A stretch of 64,000 nt of DNA from Acidobacteriota bacterium (GTDB lineage: Bacteria; Acidobacteriota; UBA890; WLXD01), in the NCBI GenBank assembly GCA_965248695.1, contig CBDFKD010000002.1:800001-864000 (forward strand). The letters are read 5' to 3'. The translations under genes and the position numbers were made by a program. Below, in pieces: positions 4,581 through 9,601 of the stretch; positions within the stretch are counted from its first letter, which is position 1, and each line of letters starts with the position of its first letter. A model generated the notes under the pieces. The model was given only the letters and a program-made list of their open reading frames with translations, did not search any database and was not told where the DNA came from.

Positions 4581-6215
4581 TCATATCCGGCAGACGAGCT
4601 CGCCGAGCCTCTCGGTGAGCTTCATGTTCTCGGAGTAGTCCACCGGACAGTCGATGATCGACACCGTGGTTGATGCGATCGCCGCCTCGAGCGTCGGTCG
4701 CAGGTCGGCGACCTGCTCAACCCGGTAGCCGGTGGCCCCGAAGCTCTCGGCGTACTTGACGAAATCCGGGTTGGTGAACCCGATGTGGCTCGGCCGCCCG
4801 AAGTGTCGCATCTGGTGCCAGCGGATCAATCCGTATTCGGAATCGTTCCAGATCAACACGACGATGGGCACTCCGAGTCGAACGGCCGTCTCGATCTCCT
4901 GGGAGTTCATCAGGAAGCCAGCGTCGCCGGTGACCGCCACGGCGGCGCGATCCGGATGCGCCAGCTTGGCGGCGATGGCGCCCGGGACGGCGATGCCCAT
5001 CGAGGCGAAGCCGTTGGAGATGATGCAGGTGTTCGGGCGCTCGGCCTGGTACATGCGCGCCATCCACATCTTGTGAGCTCCTACATCACTGATCACGATG
5101 TCTTCGGCCGCTAGCGCCTGACGTAGGTCCCAGATGATCTTCTGTGGCTTCACCGGGAAGGCGGAGCTGTCCTGATGTTCTTCCATCTCCGCCACGATGG
5201 TCTGTCGCAGAGTGGAGTCGGCAGCCGAATCGGTCGGTGAAGTGACCTCCCCGATGGCGTCCAGTGACGCGCCGATATCTCCCAAGATGCCGGCCTCGAC
5301 GATGTAGTGCTCATCGACCTCTGCCGGCTCGGAGTCGATGTGGACGATCTGCTTGTCGCCCCCCGAGTTCCACAGGTAGGGATGATACTCAACGATGTCG
5401 TAGCCAACGCAGATCACTACATCGGCTCGATCGATGCCGCAGGAGATCAGGTCGCGTGCCTGCAGCCCGACGCTGCCGAGTGACAGCTCGTGCGAGAAGG
5501 GAATCGATCCCTTGGCCATGAACGTGGTTGCCACCGGGATGCGCAGGCGCTCGGCGAAACTCACAAGGGCTTCAGACGCGCCGGCCCGCACGACGCCGTT
5601 GCCGGCCAGGATGATCGGTGCCTGGGCGTTCGAGATCAGACGTCCCGCCTGCTCGACCTTTGCCGGTGGGGGAGCGGGTGGCGTGGCCTGTTGAACCTTG
5701 AGCGGCGACTTGGCATCGAGCTCCGCGCCGGCCACGTTCTCGGGCAGGGCGAGGAAGCTGGCACCTGGTTTTTCGGCCTCGGCGACCTTGAACGCTTTAC
5801 GCACGACCTCGGGGATGATCTCGGGGGCGCGGATCTCTGTGCTGTATTTCGAGATCGGCTCGAAGAGGTTCACCAGATCGAGGATCTGATGGCTCTCCTT
5901 GTGCATTCGCGTGGTAGCCCCCTGCCCGGCAATGGCGACCAGCGGAGCGCGGTCCATGTTGGCGTCGGCAACGCCGGTGACCAGGTTGGTCGCGCCGGGT
6001 CCGAGGGTTGCCAGACACACTCCCGCTCGGCCTGTGAGGCGGCCGTATACGTCCGCCATGAAAGCCGCACCCTGCTCATGGCGCGTGACCACGAACTGGA
6101 TGGAACTGTCGAGCAGCGCGTCCATGACGTCGATGTTTTCTTCGCCCGGGATGCCGAAGAGGTACTCGACCCCCTCGTTCTCCAGACACTGCACGAACAG
6201 TTCCGCAGCTTTCAT
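4581..6215 (-). CDS. Acetolactate synthase large subunit (TPP enzyme)
   Basis: FGIPGEEN, TRHEQGAAFMA, GPGATN, TPP motif GDAGF...ND. Confidence 0.9.
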   Translation of the reverse strand: MKAAELFVQCLENEGVEYLFGIPGEENIDVMDALLDSSIQFVVTRHEQGAAFMADVYGRLTGRAGVCLATLGPGATNLVTGVADANMDRAPLVAIAGQGATTRMHKESHQILDLVNLFEPISKYSTEIRAPEIIPEVVRKAFKVAEAEKPGASFLALPENVAGAELDAKSPLKVQQATPPAPPPAKVEQAGRLISNAQAPIILAGNGVVRAGASEALVSFAERLRIPVATTFMAKGSIPFSHELSLGSVGLQARDLISCGIDRADVVICVGYDIVEYHPYLWNSGGDKQIVHIDSEPAEVDEHYIVEAGILGDIGASLDAIGEVTSPTDSAADSTLRQTIVAEMEEHQDSSAFPVKPQKIIWDLRQALAAEDIVISDVGAHKMWMARMYQAERPNTCIISNGFASMGIAVPGAIAAKLAHPDRAAVAVTGDAGFLMNSQEIETAVRLGVPIVVLIWNDSEYGLIRWHQMRHFGRPSHIGFTNPDFVKYAESFGATGYRVEQVADLRPTLEAAIASTTVSIIDCPVDYSENMKLTERLGELVCRI

Positions 6216-6436
6216 TGCTGGCTCCCCTGAGGCCGTCTTCTAGGGTTGGGGGGAGATCCAGCATAGTCGACGCGTCGCAGCGATTGCCGTCAGTGCCTCC
6301 CGATCGGCGTTTCGCTACGCTCATCGAGTGCACCTCCCTAGGTCATAACCCGACGGCACCTCAGGCCGCGCAATGGGCATCGTTACCAAGTCACGTCGGT
6401 ACCGCAAGGCAGCCGAAGGATCGGCGCGCGACGCCA

Positions 6437-7666
6437 CTAGACCTGGAGCGTGATCTCGCTGAATCCGTCGATCAGCGGGTTGGGTTTCCGGATCCGATTG
6501 TCAACGAGCTTCTGCACGAACCCGAATCTCGTCACCGCACCCACGGCGGCCATCATCACGTCCAACCATCGTGCGCGACTGAGCAGGAAGAGCGGGACCT
6601 TCCGTTGCATGGCTTGTGTCTTCGTCACTTCCCGTAGGCGTGCAGATTGAAACTGCTTGGCGACGATATCGAGCGCGCTAGGGTCGACACCCTGGAGTAG
6701 CGGCGGGACGAAGTGGTTGGCCACTACTACGGCATCGCGCAAGGCGACGTTGATTCCCTGGGCGCCGACCGGAGACATGGGGTGGGCGGCGTCGCCGAGC
6801 ATCAGCATTCCGGGAGCCGACCAGTGCTCGTAGCAATCGCACACGACGTCGAGAAGAAACGGCTGCGTCGCATTGGTCGCATGGGCGCGCAGATGCTCCG
6901 CCATGTCCGTCGCCACATGGCGGGCGATCTCTTCGATCCATCCCTCTACACCCATTTCGCGAAACGCCCTGTAGCTACCCTTCTTGATCACCCAGCCGAG
7001 CTGCAAGAGACCATCATATGAGGGGATGCAAAGGCCGAAATGGCCGCTACCGAAGTAACCCCGTACGGTAGGCACCTGCCCGTCGCAGAAAGCCGGCATC
7101 GGTAGCTTGCACCACACGACGTCGAACGCCTCCGGCCGACGCGGCTGGTCCAGCCCGGACGCCTGTCGCATGGTGGAGAAGCGGCCGTCGCAAGCAAAGA
7201 TGTAGTCGGCTTCGATACGCTCCGGCCCATCCAAGCCACGTAGTTCGACGCCAACAACCCGGTCGCCGTCGTGTATTGGCCCGGCGACGCTCACGCCGCG
7301 GCGAAACGTGAACTCTGGATGAGCGGCGGCCTGCTCGATGAGCATCTCCAGCATTGCCGGCTGCGAGACGAATCGCGGCGGCAGTCGATCTTCCCAGTTG
7401 AGCCGGAGGCTGAGGAAACGGTGCCCCTTGAAGTGCACCTGTGCCCCGCCTAGCACCGTATGCGGCAGCGACAAGAACTCCTCCCAGAGGCCAGCCTCGT
7501 CGAACATCTTTTGTCCACCCGGTGCCAGTCCTTCGCCGCGGAACTCACGCGCGAAATCCGAGTGGCGTTCCACCAGAGTTACGGGAATACCTCGGCTGGC
7601 GAGGAGATAGGCCAGGAGGGCGCCTGCCGGACCGCCACCGACCACGACTGCGCTGTGTGCGGTCAC
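6437..7666 (-). CDS. FAD-dependent monooxygenase/oxidoreductase (UbiH-like)
   Basis: GGGPAG, CDGRFS, GDAAHPMSPVGAQGIN. Confidence 0.9.
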   Translation of the reverse strand: MTAHSAVVVGGGPAGALLAYLLASRGIPVTLVERHSDFAREFRGEGLAPGGQKMFDEAGLWEEFLSLPHTVLGGAQVHFKGHRFLSLRLNWEDRLPPRFVSQPAMLEMLIEQAAAHPEFTFRRGVSVAGPIHDGDRVVGVELRGLDGPERIEADYIFACDGRFSTMRQASGLDQPRRPEAFDVVWCKLPMPAFCDGQVPTVRGYFGSGHFGLCIPSYDGLLQLGWVIKKGSYRAFREMGVEGWIEEIARHVATDMAEHLRAHATNATQPFLLDVVCDCYEHWSAPGMLMLGDAAHPMSPVGAQGINVALRDAVVVANHFVPPLLQGVDPSALDIVAKQFQSARLREVTKTQAMQRKVPLFLLSRARWLDVMMAAVGAVTRFGFVQKLVDNRIRKPNPLIDGFSEITLQV

Positions 7667-7694: not shown

Positions 7695-8207
7695 CTACTC
7701 GCCTCGGAAATCGGGATTCGGCATGCTCTTGAAAATCATCTCGCGTGCTGTGAGGCGCAGTTCTTCCGGTGTCGGTCGTCCGACGAAGTACCAGCCGTTG
7801 AAGATCCGGTGGATGGTCAGATCGGGGAGCAGTGCGAAGGTGAAGGGGACGGGCAAGGGACCGTGATAGGTATCGGTTGTCTCACGAATCCCCAGGGCCT
7901 CAGTGAGTTGCAATTCTTGATCGCTCAGGAAGCTGAACTCCGCGCCGAGATCGGCTCTTAGCGCTGCTTGCGTCTCCGGGGGGTCGACCGAAACAGCGGC
8001 GATCCGGCAGTAGGCGACCTCAGCGGCACGTTGGAACTGGACCAGTTCCGACAGCTGTAGCTGTCACTTCGGTCACCAGGGGCCACGATAAAACGCCACG
8101 AACAACGGCAGCCGGCCCGCGAGGTCGGCGATCGAGACTATGTTGCCGGTGTGGTCCGAAAGGTTGTGGTCCGGGAACTTCTGGCCGACGTCGTACTGCA
8201 GAGGCAT
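7695..8207 (-). CDS. AhpC/TSA-type redoxin, putative selenoprotein with UxxU motif (UGA at codons 45 and 48)
   Basis: Continuous frame from ATG 8207 (GGAG RBS) to TAG 7695: MPLQYDVGQKFPDHNLSDHTG...VAFYRGPW*PK*QLQLSEL...AAVSVDPP...FSFLSD...GRPTPEELR. The only internal stops are TGA at 8073-8075 and 8064-8066. Confidence 0.8.
8033..8049 (-). promoter_or_regulatory. Putative bacterial SECIS hairpin
   Basis: mRNA GGAACUG-GUC-CAGUUCC perfect stem with GGUC at the apex, about 20 nt and 29 nt downstream of the two in-frame UGAs. Confidence 0.65.
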
Positions 8208-8243
8208 GGAGGATTCTCCCGCGAGCGTGCTGCGATGCCGATT

Positions 8244-9485
8244 CTAGGTGGACAGACCCCTCGCCGCGACAGGCCAGATTTCGTCGACGCGGTCGCCACG
8301 GATGGCGTACAGCTGATCGTAGAGGTTCACCACCGGGTCGCAGTGCGACACGATGAGCTCGAGCTTATCGCCGACGCGATAGGTGCGCGAAGGGTCGTCG
8401 TATCGCAGCACCCCGAACTCGTCGGAGCCCGAGCGGTACTGCATCCCGGACTCTCCCTTCACCATCGGCCAAGGCTGGTTGATGGTGCATGCCTTGGCGC
8501 CCGCGTCGGTGGTGACCTGCCCGTCGTACTGGTCGTTGAGCACCGTCGTGAGAATCGTCAGCGCGGGCTGGAAGTCGGAGTAAACCAGTGGGTCGGAGGT
8601 ACCGCCGATGGCCATGTACTGCGCATCCATGAATACGTAGCTACCCACCTGCACATCGGTGAGCCCGGGCGTCTCGTGGTCGATGTTGTAGGTACCGGTG
8701 CCGCCGCCGCTGAAGATCTCGGTGCTCAGGCCGGAGCTCTCGAAGAGCGTGGCTGTCTCGACCCCTGCCAACAGCCGCTGAAGGGTCTGTGCCCGTCGCG
8801 TGTCGAAGCCCTTCACATGCTGCGAGCCACCGTCGTAGCACAGCAGCCCCCGAAGCTGCAGCCCTGGTAGCCGGTCGATGCGCTGTGCCAGCTCGAGGGC
8901 CGGTTGACCCCCGGTGATGCCGGTGCGATGGGTTCCAGGGTCCACATCGACCACGACATCGGCGACGACGCCAATTGCTTGTGCAGCATCGGAAAGGTCC
9001 TGGGCGTTGTCGGGCGTGTCGGTGGCTTGAATGAAGCTCGAGCATTTCTTCCTCAGGCTCATCGCTCGGTTGATCTTGAACGGCGTCACGTTGCTGGTGG
9101 TCATCAAGATCTGCTCGATGCGGTGCTCGAACATCACCTCGGCCTCGCTCACCTTGGCGGTGCAGATGCCCACCGACCCTGAGTCGAGCTGCCTGCGAGC
9201 GATGGTCGGGCACTTGTGCGTCTTGGCATGCGGGCGGCTGGCGATCCCGTTGCCCGAGACGGCGCGCTGGCAGGTCGCCAGATTGGCCTCCAGCGCTTCC
9301 AGGTCAACGCAGAGCGCCGGCGTGTCCAGCTCCGACTTGGAAACACCGGCTTGATGCATTGACCTGTTGGCGGCCATCGACCGCATTTCCTCAGGTGAGT
9401 ATCCCTTCACGGACGTAGGAACCCATACGCCGGCGGCCCCGGCGGTCTGCAGGAAACGGCGGCGGGACAGCGGCGTGTTGCTCAC
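8244..9485 (-). CDS. DSD1/D-threonine aldolase family PLP enzyme (alanine racemase fold) with Tat signal
   Basis: SRRRFL Tat motif, LDTPALCVD, RPHAKTHK (PLP Lys), SGGGTGT, GSYVFMD, SHCDPVVNLYD. GTG start at 9485 is chosen; the ORF extends to 9590. Confidence 0.85.
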   Translation of the reverse strand: MSNTPLSRRRFLQTAGAAGVWVPTSVKGYSPEEMRSMAANRSMHQAGVSKSELDTPALCVDLEALEANLATCQRAVSGNGIASRPHAKTHKCPTIARRQLDSGSVGICTAKVSEAEVMFEHRIEQILMTTSNVTPFKINRAMSLRKKCSSFIQATDTPDNAQDLSDAAQAIGVVADVVVDVDPGTHRTGITGGQPALELAQRIDRLPGLQLRGLLCYDGGSQHVKGFDTRRAQTLQRLLAGVETATLFESSGLSTEIFSGGGTGTYNIDHETPGLTDVQVGSYVFMDAQYMAIGGTSDPLVYSDFQPALTILTTVLNDQYDGQVTTDAGAKACTINQPWPMVKGESGMQYRSGSDEFGVLRYDDPSRTYRVGDKLELIVSHCDPVVNLYDQLYAIRGDRVDEIWPVAARGLST

Positions 9486-9601
9486 AGGGTTCTCCGTATT
9501 CGGGGCAGACGAAGCCGAAGCGCGGATAGTAGCGCGGGCGTCCGACCACGACCACGGAGGGTCAGTCCGTGTCACCTGCTCGACACTCACTGCCGCCGCC
9601 G

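What the first reader, a model, noticed from the sequence alone, without database searches (positions are those of the whole stretch)
7695..8207. Hidden redoxin with two in-frame UGA codons: candidate UxxU di-selenoprotein
Seen: one frame from ATG 8207 to TAG 7695 encodes a complete 170-aa AhpC/TSA-like protein. Its only interruptions are two TGA codons, exactly at the CxxC positions (FYRGPW-U-PK-U-QLQL). The ORF track shows only the last 72 aa. Known: bacteria recode UGA as selenocysteine, and UxxU motifs are very rare (selenoprotein L is the classic case, forming a diselenide). Inference: two independent nonsense errors landing 3 codons apart in the active site are unlikely, so this is probably a UxxU selenoprotein of a family other than SelL. 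From memory (unverified), relatives read C-P-K-[D/E], so the second Sec may be an innovation.
Basis: partly seen in the sequence, partly recalled or inferred. Interest (0 to 1): 0.92.

Follow-up and report, generated by a model that had tools for sequence, protein, structure and literature searches.

The report
Two-selenocysteine peroxiredoxin-like redox protein gene
A small redox-protein gene that looks broken by two stop codons is intact and widely conserved, and both stops very probably encode selenocysteine; the type is rare but already catalogued, and the public database entries examined here hold it only as truncated fragments.

Summary
Window 7695-8207 (-) is a 170-codon AhpC/TSA-fold frame whose only interruptions are TGA at codons 45 and 48 (W-U-P-K-U). 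It is very probably a real two-selenocysteine protein.

- The genome has selA, selB, selD and a tRNA-Sec(UCA), plus at least eight other selenoprotein genes.
- 27 of 32 orthologous loci, with record titles naming several phyla, keep both TGAs. Four have TGC/TGT at the second site and one has TCA at the first.
- dN/dS downstream of the second TGA is 0.08 between the two UxxU congeners.
- A 6-7 bp hairpin with an invariant GU in its loop follows both TGAs. It shows compensatory changes and is absent from Cys-type relatives.
- Independent contigs of public runs show the same letters.

On the tree UxxU looks ancestral for this clade, and UxxC (including two congeners) looks secondary.

The kind is already catalogued: reviews list "Prx-like thiol:disulfide oxidoreductase, PF00578, UxxC/UxxU". 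SelL and Lokiarchaeal PrxL.1 are other two-Sec precedents, and this scan found the same family before on other DNA. It is a new member of a known kind. All 120 best database proteins are C-terminal fragments. No protein or RNA evidence exists.

The parts
7695..8207 (-). Coding sequence of the 170-residue AhpC/TSA-fold (Prx-like) selenoprotein, ATG 8207 to stop TAG 7695-7697
   Evidence: translation. (PF00578, 69 bits, residues 7-126). (dN/dS 0.17 over the whole gene and 0.078 after codon 48, against the 91%-identical congener). (AlphaFold2 pLDDT 88.8, thioredoxin-like fold).
8073..8075 (-). First in-frame UGA, codon 45 (Sec45). It aligns with the first Cys of CxxC, CPKE and CPRD relatives and with the Thr/Ser of the peroxiredoxin T/SxxC motif.
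   Evidence: TGA in 31 of 32 orthologous loci, TCA in one. It is Cys in all 61 more distant relatives (under 52% identity) whose motif was readable; one further row, L093, could not be read there. One search gives the alignment to PDB peroxiredoxins.
8064..8066 (-). Second in-frame UGA, codon 48 (Sec48). It aligns with the second Cys of CxxC relatives and with the peroxidatic Cys of PrxQ/BCP.
   Evidence: TGA in 28 of 32 orthologous loci and TGC/TGT in 4 (a Sec/Cys pair). One search gives the alignment to 2cx3 and 2ywn.
8033..8049 (-). SECIS-like hairpin GGAACUG-GUC-CAGUUCC: stem 8043-8049 with 8033-8039, loop 8040-8042. Read with 6 bp, the loop is GGUCC. The G at 8042 and U at 8041 are invariant.
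   Evidence: The hairpin energy is -9.1 kcal/mol. 94.9% of cells are paired over 28 distinct sequences, and 3 of 7 pairs show compensatory changes. It lies 29-30 nt after UGA1 and 20-21 nt after UGA2. The equivalent stretch in 10 Cys-type relatives folds at only -1.1 to -5.3 kcal/mol.
8216..8220 (-). Shine-Dalgarno-like GGGAG, 8 nt upstream of the ATG
   Evidence: Read directly from the sequence. Not tested further.

Best explanation
This is an intact gene for a small, apparently cytoplasmic, thioredoxin-fold 'Prx-like' redox protein with the active site W-U-P-K-U.

Decoding (inferred from the anatomy). Both UGA codons are read as selenocysteine by the bacterial SelB/tRNA-Sec system, directed by a single hairpin inside the coding region (window 8033-8049). 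SelB carrying Sec-tRNA binds the GU-containing loop and delivers Sec when the ribosome is at codon 45, with the loop 29-30 nt ahead. A second SelB complex does the same three codons later at codon 48, with the loop 20-21 nt ahead. Both UGAs are followed by C. From recall, that is a weak termination context.

Chemistry (inferred, about 50% confidence). Sec45 sits at the N-cap of the active-site helix and acts as the nucleophile. Sec48, in the first helical turn, resolves the intermediate by forming an intramolecular diselenide, as reported for SelL. The protein would then be a very low-potential selenol/diselenide oxidoreductase rather than a classical peroxidase, because the position of the peroxiredoxin catalytic Arg appears to hold an invariant thioredoxin-type cis-Pro motif (P-V-P-F-T-F).

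Shown here: the gene is conserved, is under purifying selection beyond both UGAs, and carries a conserved, covarying SECIS-like hairpin, and the genome has the Sec machinery. Not shown: selenium in the protein, the diselenide, the substrate and the reductant.
For: 1. Sec machinery in the same genome. selA scores 521.8 bits and selD 319.1 bits. selB scores 330.4 bits, or 354.3 with its C-terminal piece. tRNA-Sec matches RF01852 at 70.2 bits with anticodon UCA.

2. The genome uses Sec elsewhere. Eight further TGA-containing genes have a Pfam domain across the TGA: an FdhA-type molybdopterin enzyme, two AhpD-like CxxU proteins, three AhpC/TSA UxxC proteins, a DUF3179 protein and a GrdB-like protein. 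TGA is still the ordinary stop, ending 1456 of 2678 long open frames.

3. Conservation. Both TGAs are kept in 27 of 32 orthologous loci at 61% identity or more (24 of 29 after collapsing three identical pairs). Their record titles name Acidobacteriota, Latescibacterota, Binatia, Acidimicrobiales, SAR324, Pseudomonadota and others. Four loci have Cys codons at site 48.

4. Purifying selection after the second TGA. Between the two UxxU congeners there are 15 synonymous and 4 non-synonymous differences in codons 49-170, giving dN/dS 0.078. The binomial P is 1e-6 against neutrality.

5. The hairpin fits the published bSECIS model as quoted in PMC13188914, passages seen: loop 3-9 nt, G in the first two loop positions, spacing 16-37 nt, energy -7.5 kcal/mol or lower. 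The hairpin scores -9.1 kcal/mol. Its G and U are invariant in 29 sequences. Compensatory changes occur at 3 of 7 pairs, including synonymous CUG/CAG to UUG/CAA. It is retained in the UxxC orthologues and absent from 10 CxxE/CxxD relatives.

6. The spacing from UGA2 (20-21 nt) lies within the 16-24 nt seen in the eight other selenoprotein genes of this genome.

7. The letters are real. Run contigs covering both codons show no difference.

8. Fold. The AlphaFold2 model has pLDDT 88.8, and residue 45 comes just before helix 46-61. The best PDB matches are PrxQ/BCP, AhpE and ResA, with TM-score up to 0.83.
Against: - There is no protein-level or RNA-level evidence.
- The spacing from UGA1 to the loop (29-30 nt) is outside the 16-24 nt seen in the eight other selenoprotein genes of this genome. 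It is inside the published 16-37 range, and the UxxC orthologues rely on that same spacing for their only Sec.
- The hairpin lies in codons for a conserved E-L-V-Q/E-F, so part of its conservation is protein constraint. The shuffle control is not a probability.
- The second Sec is dispensable in evolution. Four orthologues use Cys there, one has Ser at the first site, and one locus (L082) has lost the active-site region.
- Two successive recoding events should lower the yield.
- A second tRNA(UCA)-like gene exists. It looks like a 3' partial duplicate of selC with a poor acceptor stem and D arm, and it scores below the Rfam cut-off, but its activity is not excluded.
- The functional reading (oxidoreductase, diselenide) rests on analogy and on motifs recalled from memory.
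Confidence: 0.85

Rival explanations
1. Mixed decoding. Codon 45 is Sec, but codon 48 (or either codon) is at least partly read as Cys by a SelB-dependent tRNA of the tRNA-ReC (selC*) type, or as Trp by near-cognate read-through. The mature protein would then be UxxC-like or heterogeneous.
For: PMC13582414 (passages seen) reports that genomes with UxxU hydrogenases are enriched in tRNA-ReC-like genes, and says that one or both UGAs may be read otherwise there. This genome has a second tRNA(UCA)-like gene at C2:4678307-4678404. Four orthologues carry a Cys codon at site 48, so Cys works there.
Against: The second tRNA copy shares only the 3' ~75 nt with selC. Its acceptor stem has an A-C mismatch and several G-U pairs, and its D arm is weak. 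Its discriminator is G; a Cys acceptor would be expected to have U (that rule is recalled, not tested). It scores 44.9 bits against the Rfam cut-off of 47. ARAGORN found no other tRNA with a UCA anticodon among the 59 tRNA genes it listed. TGA at site 48 is kept in 28 of 32 loci although a one-base change would give Cys.
Confidence: 0.08
2. The gene is a pseudogene with two nonsense mutations, or the TGAs are sequencing or assembly errors.
For: Under table 11 the frame is broken twice, and gene callers cut it. All 120 best database proteins are C-terminal fragments. One related locus (L082) really has lost the active-site region.
Against: The same two TGAs occur in 27 of 32 loci from independent assemblies. 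dN/dS is 0.078 downstream. The SECIS-like hairpin is conserved and covaries. Run contigs agree with the window.
Confidence: 0.01
3. Same gene and same decoding, but a different job. One option is a true peroxidase in which Sec48, aligned with the peroxidatic Cys of PrxQ/BCP, reduces peroxides and Sec45 resolves. Another is a metal- or metalloid-binding protein that uses two selenolates.
For: Site 48 aligns with the peroxidatic Cys of BCP/PrxQ structures, and the best structural matches are peroxiredoxins. Other catalogued UxxU selenoproteins include a putative metal-binding protein (table seen in PMC13188914).
Against: In the sister clades site 48 is Glu or Asp while site 45 stays Cys, so the first position is the conserved reactive one. 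NCBIfam peroxidase models are far below their cut-offs: 34.4 against 140 bits, and 17.2 against 260. The position of the peroxiredoxin Arg appears to hold an invariant Pro motif; this is an inference from the alignment and from recalled motifs. No metal-handling neighbours are conserved.
Confidence: 0.3

Closest known systems
Prokaryotic 'Prx-like thiol:disulfide oxidoreductase' selenoproteins (pfam00578; motif UxxC or UxxU; 1-2 Sec). Listed in the tables of PMC9312934 and PMC13188914; 'Prx-like 1' of the GOS survey, PMC2398784.
   Same: PF00578 domain, thioredoxin-like W-[U/C]-x-x-[U/C] redox box, first position Sec, in-frame bacterial SECIS just downstream. The UxxU variant is explicitly listed.
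   Different: This is a distinct orthologous clade with W-U-P-K-U. It is 26-32% identical to this genome's own W-U-P-Y-C paralogues. Here UxxU is the majority state and looks ancestral. I found no text that describes this clade itself. Supplements could not be read and may list members.
Selenoprotein L (SelL) of aquatic eukaryotes (Shchedrina et al. 2007, PNAS). The paper is not held. It is known to me from recall and from citations seen in PMC2398784 and PMC4989117.
   Same: Prx-like thioredoxin fold, a UxxU redox box thought to form a diselenide, and one SECIS serving two UGAs two codons apart (stated in PMC4989117).
   Different: SelL is eukaryotic and its SECIS is in the 3'UTR. Here the hairpin is bacterial and lies inside the coding region. 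The NCBIfam SelL-related model scores only 30.8 bits against a cut-off of 120.
Lokiarchaeota PrxL.1 (Mariotti et al. 2016, PMC4989117; passages seen)
   Same: A Prx-like protein with both redox-box Cys replaced by Sec, next to relatives with one Sec. A diselenide is proposed.
   Different: PrxL.1 is archaeal, with a eukaryote-like SECIS downstream of the gene. No sequence comparison was made here.
PrxQ/BCP and AhpE peroxiredoxins and ResA (solved structures 3hjp, 5epf, 1xxu, 2cx3, 1su9)
   Same: The overall fold: TM-score 0.83 to 3hjp_A, with 16-21% identity. Site 48 aligns with the peroxidatic Cys and site 45 with the motif's Ser/Thr.
   Different: Sec replaces Thr/Ser at site 45. The curated peroxidase models are not met. 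The C-terminal half does not align by sequence.
UxxU-type Group 4 [NiFeSe] hydrogenases (PMC13582414; passages seen)
   Same: Two UGAs three codons apart in bacteria. The authors propose that a single downstream SECIS decodes both.
   Different: An unrelated protein in which the Sec residues are metal ligands. The authors link UxxU to tRNA-ReC-like genes, for which I found no convincing candidate here.

Membership tests
Bacterial SelB/SECIS-dependent selenoprotein | In-frame UGA at a position that is Cys in homologues (Sec/Cys pair) | tested here: met
   Site 48 is TGC/TGT in 4 of 32 orthologous loci. Site 45 is Cys in the CPKE, CPRD and CP[YF]C relatives.
Bacterial SelB/SECIS-dependent selenoprotein | [quoted passage not shown] | tested here: met
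   Stem of 6-7 bp, loop GUC or GGUCC, -9.1 kcal/mol, 29-30 nt after UGA1 and 20-21 nt after UGA2. The GU is invariant and 3 pairs show compensatory changes. bSECISearch itself was not run.
Bacterial SelB/SECIS-dependent selenoprotein | selA, selB, selC and selD in the genome | tested here: met
   All four are over the curated cut-offs, and the tRNA-Sec anticodon is UCA.
Bacterial SelB/SECIS-dependent selenoprotein | Selenium actually incorporated at the UGA positions | not testable with these tools
   Needs 75Se labelling or mass spectrometry.
Prx-like thiol:disulfide oxidoreductase selenoproteins (pfam00578, UxxC/UxxU) | PF00578 domain over Pfam's gathering score | tested here: met
   69 bits against a cut-off of 26, residues 7-126.
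Prx-like thiol:disulfide oxidoreductase selenoproteins (pfam00578, UxxC/UxxU) | Thioredoxin-type redox box with Sec at the first position (UxxC or UxxU), at the start of the active-site helix | tested here: met
   W-U-P-K-U. The predicted helix 46-61 begins right after residue 45.
Prx-like thiol:disulfide oxidoreductase selenoproteins (pfam00578, UxxC/UxxU) | Sequence relationship to the family's named representative (WP_010940744.1 in the reviews' tables) | not tested
Only the genome's own W-U-P-Y-C paralogues were compared, at 26-32% identity.
SelL / SelL-related redox proteins | Match to NCBIfam NF040769 (SelL_rel_redox) over its cut-off | tested here: not met
   30.8 bits against a cut-off of 120.
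SelL / SelL-related redox proteins | UxxU redox box that forms a diselenide | tested here: inconclusive
   The motif is present. The diselenide cannot be tested here.
Peroxiredoxin PrxQ/BCP | Match to the curated equivalog models (NF006960, NF053650) and the P-x-x-x-T/S-x-x-C motif | tested here: not met
   34.4 against 140 bits, and 17.2 against 260 bits. The Thr/Ser position is Sec.

The most novel reading that the evidence does not exclude
This W-U-P-K-U clade is a separate, phylum-spanning orthologous family in which the diselenide-capable UxxU box is ancestral and selected. One in-frame bacterial SECIS hairpin programmes two Sec insertions 9 nt apart. The hairpin sits at the usual distance from the second UGA and about 9 nt beyond this genome's usual distance from the first. 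If shown at the bench, it would be a natural bacterial system that relaxes the strict UGA-to-SECIS spacing rule derived from E. coli fdhF. It also comes with natural UxxC orthologues, in the same genus, as built-in controls for what a second Sec adds to a redox box.
Probability: 0.3. Interest if true: 0.55.

Novelty: new member of a known kind. Interest (0 to 1): 0.4.

Why it matters
Practically, gene callers cut this family at the TGAs. The 120 best database proteins are all 97-137-residue C-terminal fragments covering at most 71% of the protein. They are named 'peroxiredoxin', 'hypothetical protein' or 'redoxin domain-containing protein'. No NCBIfam model reaches its cut-off. A dedicated model would correct what are probably hundreds of entries: 281 proteins at E 1e-10 or below, and 543 confirmed relatives of all clades in the capped metagenome scan.

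Scientifically, the clade offers natural UxxU/UxxC pairs at 75-77% identity within one genus. These can be used to ask what a diselenide adds over a selenenylsulfide. It also offers a compact natural case for testing whether one bacterial SECIS can serve two UGAs.

It does not open a new category. Two-Sec Prx-like proteins are already in reviews, and SelL and Lokiarchaeal PrxL.1 are published precedents.

Tried and rejected
- **Conserved neighbours.** The upstream D-Ser-dehydratase-like gene is shared only by the four congeners. The downstream FAD monooxygenase is shared only by G000 and G003. No neighbour recurs across the other loci. The clustering was dominated by overlapping shadow frames of the gene itself, so it gave no functional lead from context.
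- **A first hairpin for UGA1.** A hairpin right after UGA2 (A2 columns 14-19 with 24-29) is 6 bp long in this genome but only 66% paired over the family, and only 3 bp are conserved. Its loop has no G here. I rejected it as a family feature.
- **Global UGA reassignment.** Rejected: TGA ends 1456 of 2678 long frames.
- **Genome-wide search for other UxxU genes by pattern.** One search gave 202 hits. By eye only the target looked coding. This was not a rigorous census.
- **De novo selenoprotein scan.** One search gave 24 candidates. I sent 9 to Pfam: 8 were selenoprotein families and 1 (L154) was a junction of two genes. The other 15 were not examined.
- **Expression.** No RNA holder was listed among the public runs.
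- **The SelL paper.** PMC1955791 is not held, so statements about SelL chemistry are recalled or second-hand.
- **Supplements.** Supplements of the selenoproteome papers were not readable and may list members of this clade.
- **Complex prediction.** Not attempted, because no partner is claimed.

Full report
**Observation.** The minus-strand frame from ATG 8207 to TAG 7695-7697 translates to 170 residues. Its only interruptions are TGA at codon 45 (window 8073-8075) and codon 48 (8064-8066), in the context FYRGPW-U-PK-U-QLQL. Under table 11 only a 72-aa tail and a 53-aa head appear as ORFs. Pfam AhpC-TSA (PF00578) matches residues 7-126, across both TGAs, at 69 bits (cut-off 26). Redoxin scores 46.4 bits.

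An open frame with two close TGAs is not rare in itself in this 65% G+C genome. I found 202 such frames, almost all in shadow-frame composition. The case therefore rests on homology and conservation, not on openness.

**Can the organism make selenoproteins?** Yes.
- The genome (5.89 Mb, 2 contigs, 96% complete) encodes selA at 521.8 bits, selD at 319.1 bits and selB at 330.4 bits (354.3 with its C-terminal piece).
- It has a tRNA-Sec at 70.2 bits with anticodon UCA.
- TGA is still the usual stop, ending 1456 of 2678 long open frames, so this is local recoding and not a changed code.
- A composition-and-hairpin scan gave 24 candidate in-frame TGAs. I sent nine to Pfam. Eight have a known selenoprotein-type domain across the TGA: an FdhA-type molybdopterin enzyme, two AhpD-like CxxU proteins, three AhpC/TSA UxxC proteins, a DUF3179 protein and a GrdB-like protein. 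The ninth is a gene junction. The other 15 were not examined.

**Are the TGAs real and conserved?** Contigs of public runs cover both codons without a difference (X1 record 4, X2 record 7). Two ~90%-identical relatives from other studies (X5, X6) show no listed difference between 7996 and 8095. However, 26 of 66 difference rows were not shown, and X1 and X2 may be the source sample.

Among 61 genomes searched (G000 and 60 relatives), orthologues at 75% identity or more occur only in the genus. G003 is 91% identical and has both TGAs. G004 and G002 (two copies) are 77% and 75% identical and read TGA...TGC. G001 has none (92% complete).

Scans of public genome and metagenome contigs added 13 and 80 loci. 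One of the two metagenome search patterns required a Cys codon at site 45, so it could not find Sec forms; they were found through the other pattern.

I counted loci at 61% identity or more whose motif region was readable (32 loci). Three loci were dropped:
- L053, the same record as G003.
- L101, a C-terminal fragment.
- L082, which has the active-site region deleted.

Of the 32, 27 read W-U-P-K-U, 4 read W-U-P-K-C and 1 reads W-S-P-K-U. Three pairs are identical in the 102-nt segment compared, so the count is 24 of 29 distinct. The record titles name Acidobacteriota, Latescibacterota, Binatia, Acidimicrobiales, SAR324, Pseudomonadota, Spirochaetales and 'Enterobacteriaceae'. Some of these labels on metagenome bins may be unreliable.

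**Is it translated through both TGAs?** Between the two UxxU congeners, codons 49-170 differ by 15 synonymous and 4 non-synonymous changes, giving dN/dS 0.078. The whole gene gives 0.17. Under neutrality about three quarters of the changes would be non-synonymous; the binomial P is 1e-6. Across 15 orthologues, 63 columns are invariant, most of them after site 48. A pseudogene is excluded.

**SECIS.**
- *Structure.* A hairpin GGAACUG-GUC-CAGUUCC (window 8049-8033, -9.1 kcal/mol) follows the motif.
- *Conservation.* In 29 orthologous sequences (28 distinct) it is 94.9% paired. Three of seven pairs show compensatory changes: G-C to A-U, A-U to G-C, and C-G to U-A. The last arises through synonymous CUG/CAG to UUG/CAA. 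No shuffle reached the observed covariation score, and slid partners pair in only 24-40% of cells. RNAalifold predicts the same helix. The loop G and U are invariant.
- *Fit to the model.* This fits the bSECIS model quoted in PMC13188914 (passages seen). The loop starts 29-30 nt after UGA1 and 20-21 nt after UGA2.
- *Comparison within the genome.* The eight other selenoprotein genes here have 16-24 nt, and two W-U-P-Y-C paralogues have GGUCG and CGGGC loops 20 nt after their UGA. So the hairpin sits at the usual distance from the second UGA and about 9 nt further from the first. The UxxC orthologues keep the same hairpin for their single Sec, which shows that the longer spacing works.
- *Cys-type relatives.* The equivalent stretch in ten relatives folds at only -1.1 to -5.3 kcal/mol, and several of them use TTT where the Sec clade always has TTC.
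- *Caveat.* The hairpin codes for a conserved E-L-V-Q/E-F, so part of its conservation is protein constraint.
- *Rejected alternative.* A first hairpin right after UGA2 is 6 bp long here but is not conserved (66% paired).

**Which tRNA reads the UGAs?** ARAGORN lists two tRNA(UCA) genes among the 59 tRNA genes it finds. The second shares only the 3' ~75 nt, plus some downstream sequence, with selC. Its acceptor stem is mismatched, its D arm is weak and its discriminator is G. It scores 44.9 bits, below the cut-off of 47. It looks like a partial duplicate, not a Cys-inserting tRNA-ReC of the kind that PMC13582414 links to UxxU hydrogenases. Mixed decoding cannot be fully excluded.

**Evolution.** The tree used 40 rows, with motif residues counted as gaps and the four CxxD rows as outgroup.
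- The Sec clade (32 rows) is one branch with 100/99 support.
- Its sister is a CPKE clade with 87/65 support. One of its four rows, L027, comes from the unpublished genome G047; the claim also rests on L083, L084 and L088.
- UxxU occupies the deep branches.
- UxxC forms two nested groups, G004+G002 and L065+L080. This needs 2 changes.
- The basal forks are poorly supported.

By parsimony UxxU is ancestral for the clade and UxxC is secondary. This is an inference. The second Sec is an innovation of the clade, not of this genome.

**Protein.** AlphaFold2 on the 15-sequence alignment gives pLDDT 88.8 and pTM 0.87. The fold is thioredoxin/peroxiredoxin-like, and residue 45 lies immediately before helix 46-61. 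The best solved matches are S. solfataricus Bcp4 (TM-score 0.83), other PrxQ/BCP proteins, AhpE and ResA, at 16-21% identity. Profile alignment puts site 48 on the peroxidatic Cys and site 45 on the Ser/Thr of the peroxiredoxin motif. Curated NCBIfam models are all far below their cut-offs: PrxQ-type 34.4 against 140 bits, SelL-related 30.8 against 120, ResA 20.5 against 170.

Three observations bear on function:
- Site 45 is the position kept reactive (Cys or Sec) in every clade.
- Site 48 varies among U, C, E and D.
- The invariant P-V-P-F-T-F looks like a thioredoxin-type cis-Pro where peroxiredoxins have Arg (motifs recalled).

On this basis I favour a selenol/diselenide oxidoreductase with Sec45 as nucleophile and Sec48 as resolving residue, at about 50%. 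A peroxidase or metal-binding role has about 30% together.

The neighbours give no help. The upstream D-Ser-dehydratase-like gene is shared only within the genus, the downstream FAD monooxygenase is shared only with G003, and nothing recurs in the other loci.

**What is known.**
- The GOS survey reports UxxU in its 'Prx-like 2' family, a different family with weak SelP-N similarity (PMC2398784).
- Mariotti et al. 2016 describe Lokiarchaeal PrxL.1 with two Sec. They recall SelL as the one earlier diselenide case, with one SECIS for two UGAs (PMC4989117).
- Text searches for the motif itself found nothing on this clade. Supplements were not readable.
- This scan has met the same family before on other DNA: e1-2138069 (UxxU) and e1-2162534 (UxxC), with the same conclusion.
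- In the large protein database the 120 best hits are all fragments of 97-137 residues covering at most 71% of the query. None reaches the motif.

**Verdict.** The gene is a real two-Sec redoxin (confidence 0.85) and a new member of a known kind. Its value lies in annotation repair and as a natural UxxU/UxxC test pair. Interest 0.4.

Noticed in passing
G000:C2:4678307-4678404 (L017, about 1498-1595); outside the window: A second tRNA-SeC(UCA) call. It is identical to selC (C2:5559422-5559519) over the 3' ~75 nt and partly beyond, but has a different, poorly pairing 5' acceptor strand and D arm. It scores 44.9 bits against RF01852, below the cut-off of 47. It looks like a partial duplication of selC, for example an old attachment-site remnant, about 880 kb away on the other strand.
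   Followed up: partly
G000 loci L146-L153; outside the window: At least eight further probable selenoprotein genes in this genome: an FdhA-type molybdopterin enzyme (U-H-G-P), two AhpD-like CxxU proteins, three AhpC/TSA UxxC proteins, a DUF3179 UxxC protein and a GrdB-like UxxC protein. Each has a hairpin 16-24 nt after the UGA. Fifteen more scan candidates were not examined.
   Followed up: partly
G000:C2:1557914-1558828 (L003); outside the window: The selD match lies in a 794-codon open frame, so it may be fused to another domain. The GOS paper mentions Ndh-SelD fusions.
   Followed up: no
L082:370-817: An orthologue in which the stretch coding the active site (about residues 32-48) is missing and the frame shifts. 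It is either a real degraded copy or a mis-assembly.
   Followed up: partly
L063:1-471: An orthologue that reads W-S-P-K-U (TCA instead of the first TGA). It also lacks its stop codon at the usual place. It could be an inactive variant or an error.
   Followed up: no
L057:3809-4771 (-): Next to a UxxU orthologue lies a paralogous Cys-type redoxin (F-C-R-R-D) with a C-terminal extension of about 80 residues. The extension resembles a cold-shock-type domain; this is an impression from the sequence and was not tested.
   Followed up: no
window 8032-8109: In runs X2, X5 and X6, extra contigs of other organisms lie only on this short stretch (active-site codons plus the hairpin) at under 90% identity. 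This shows how strongly this piece is conserved at the nucleotide level.
   Followed up: no
G000:C2:3177552-3177645 and C2:4157204-4157301; outside the window: ARAGORN calls two oversized tRNAs with poor stems: tRNA-Cys(ACA) of 94 nt and tRNA-Pro(GGG) of 98 nt. They are probably false calls.
   Followed up: no
window 4581-7666 and 8244-9590 (-): The redoxin lies in a same-strand row of genes: a D-Ser-dehydratase-like gene (Ala_racemase_N + D-ser_dehydrat), then the redoxin, then an FAD_binding_3 monooxygenase 28 nt downstream, then a TPP enzyme. The row is conserved only within the genus.
   Followed up: partly
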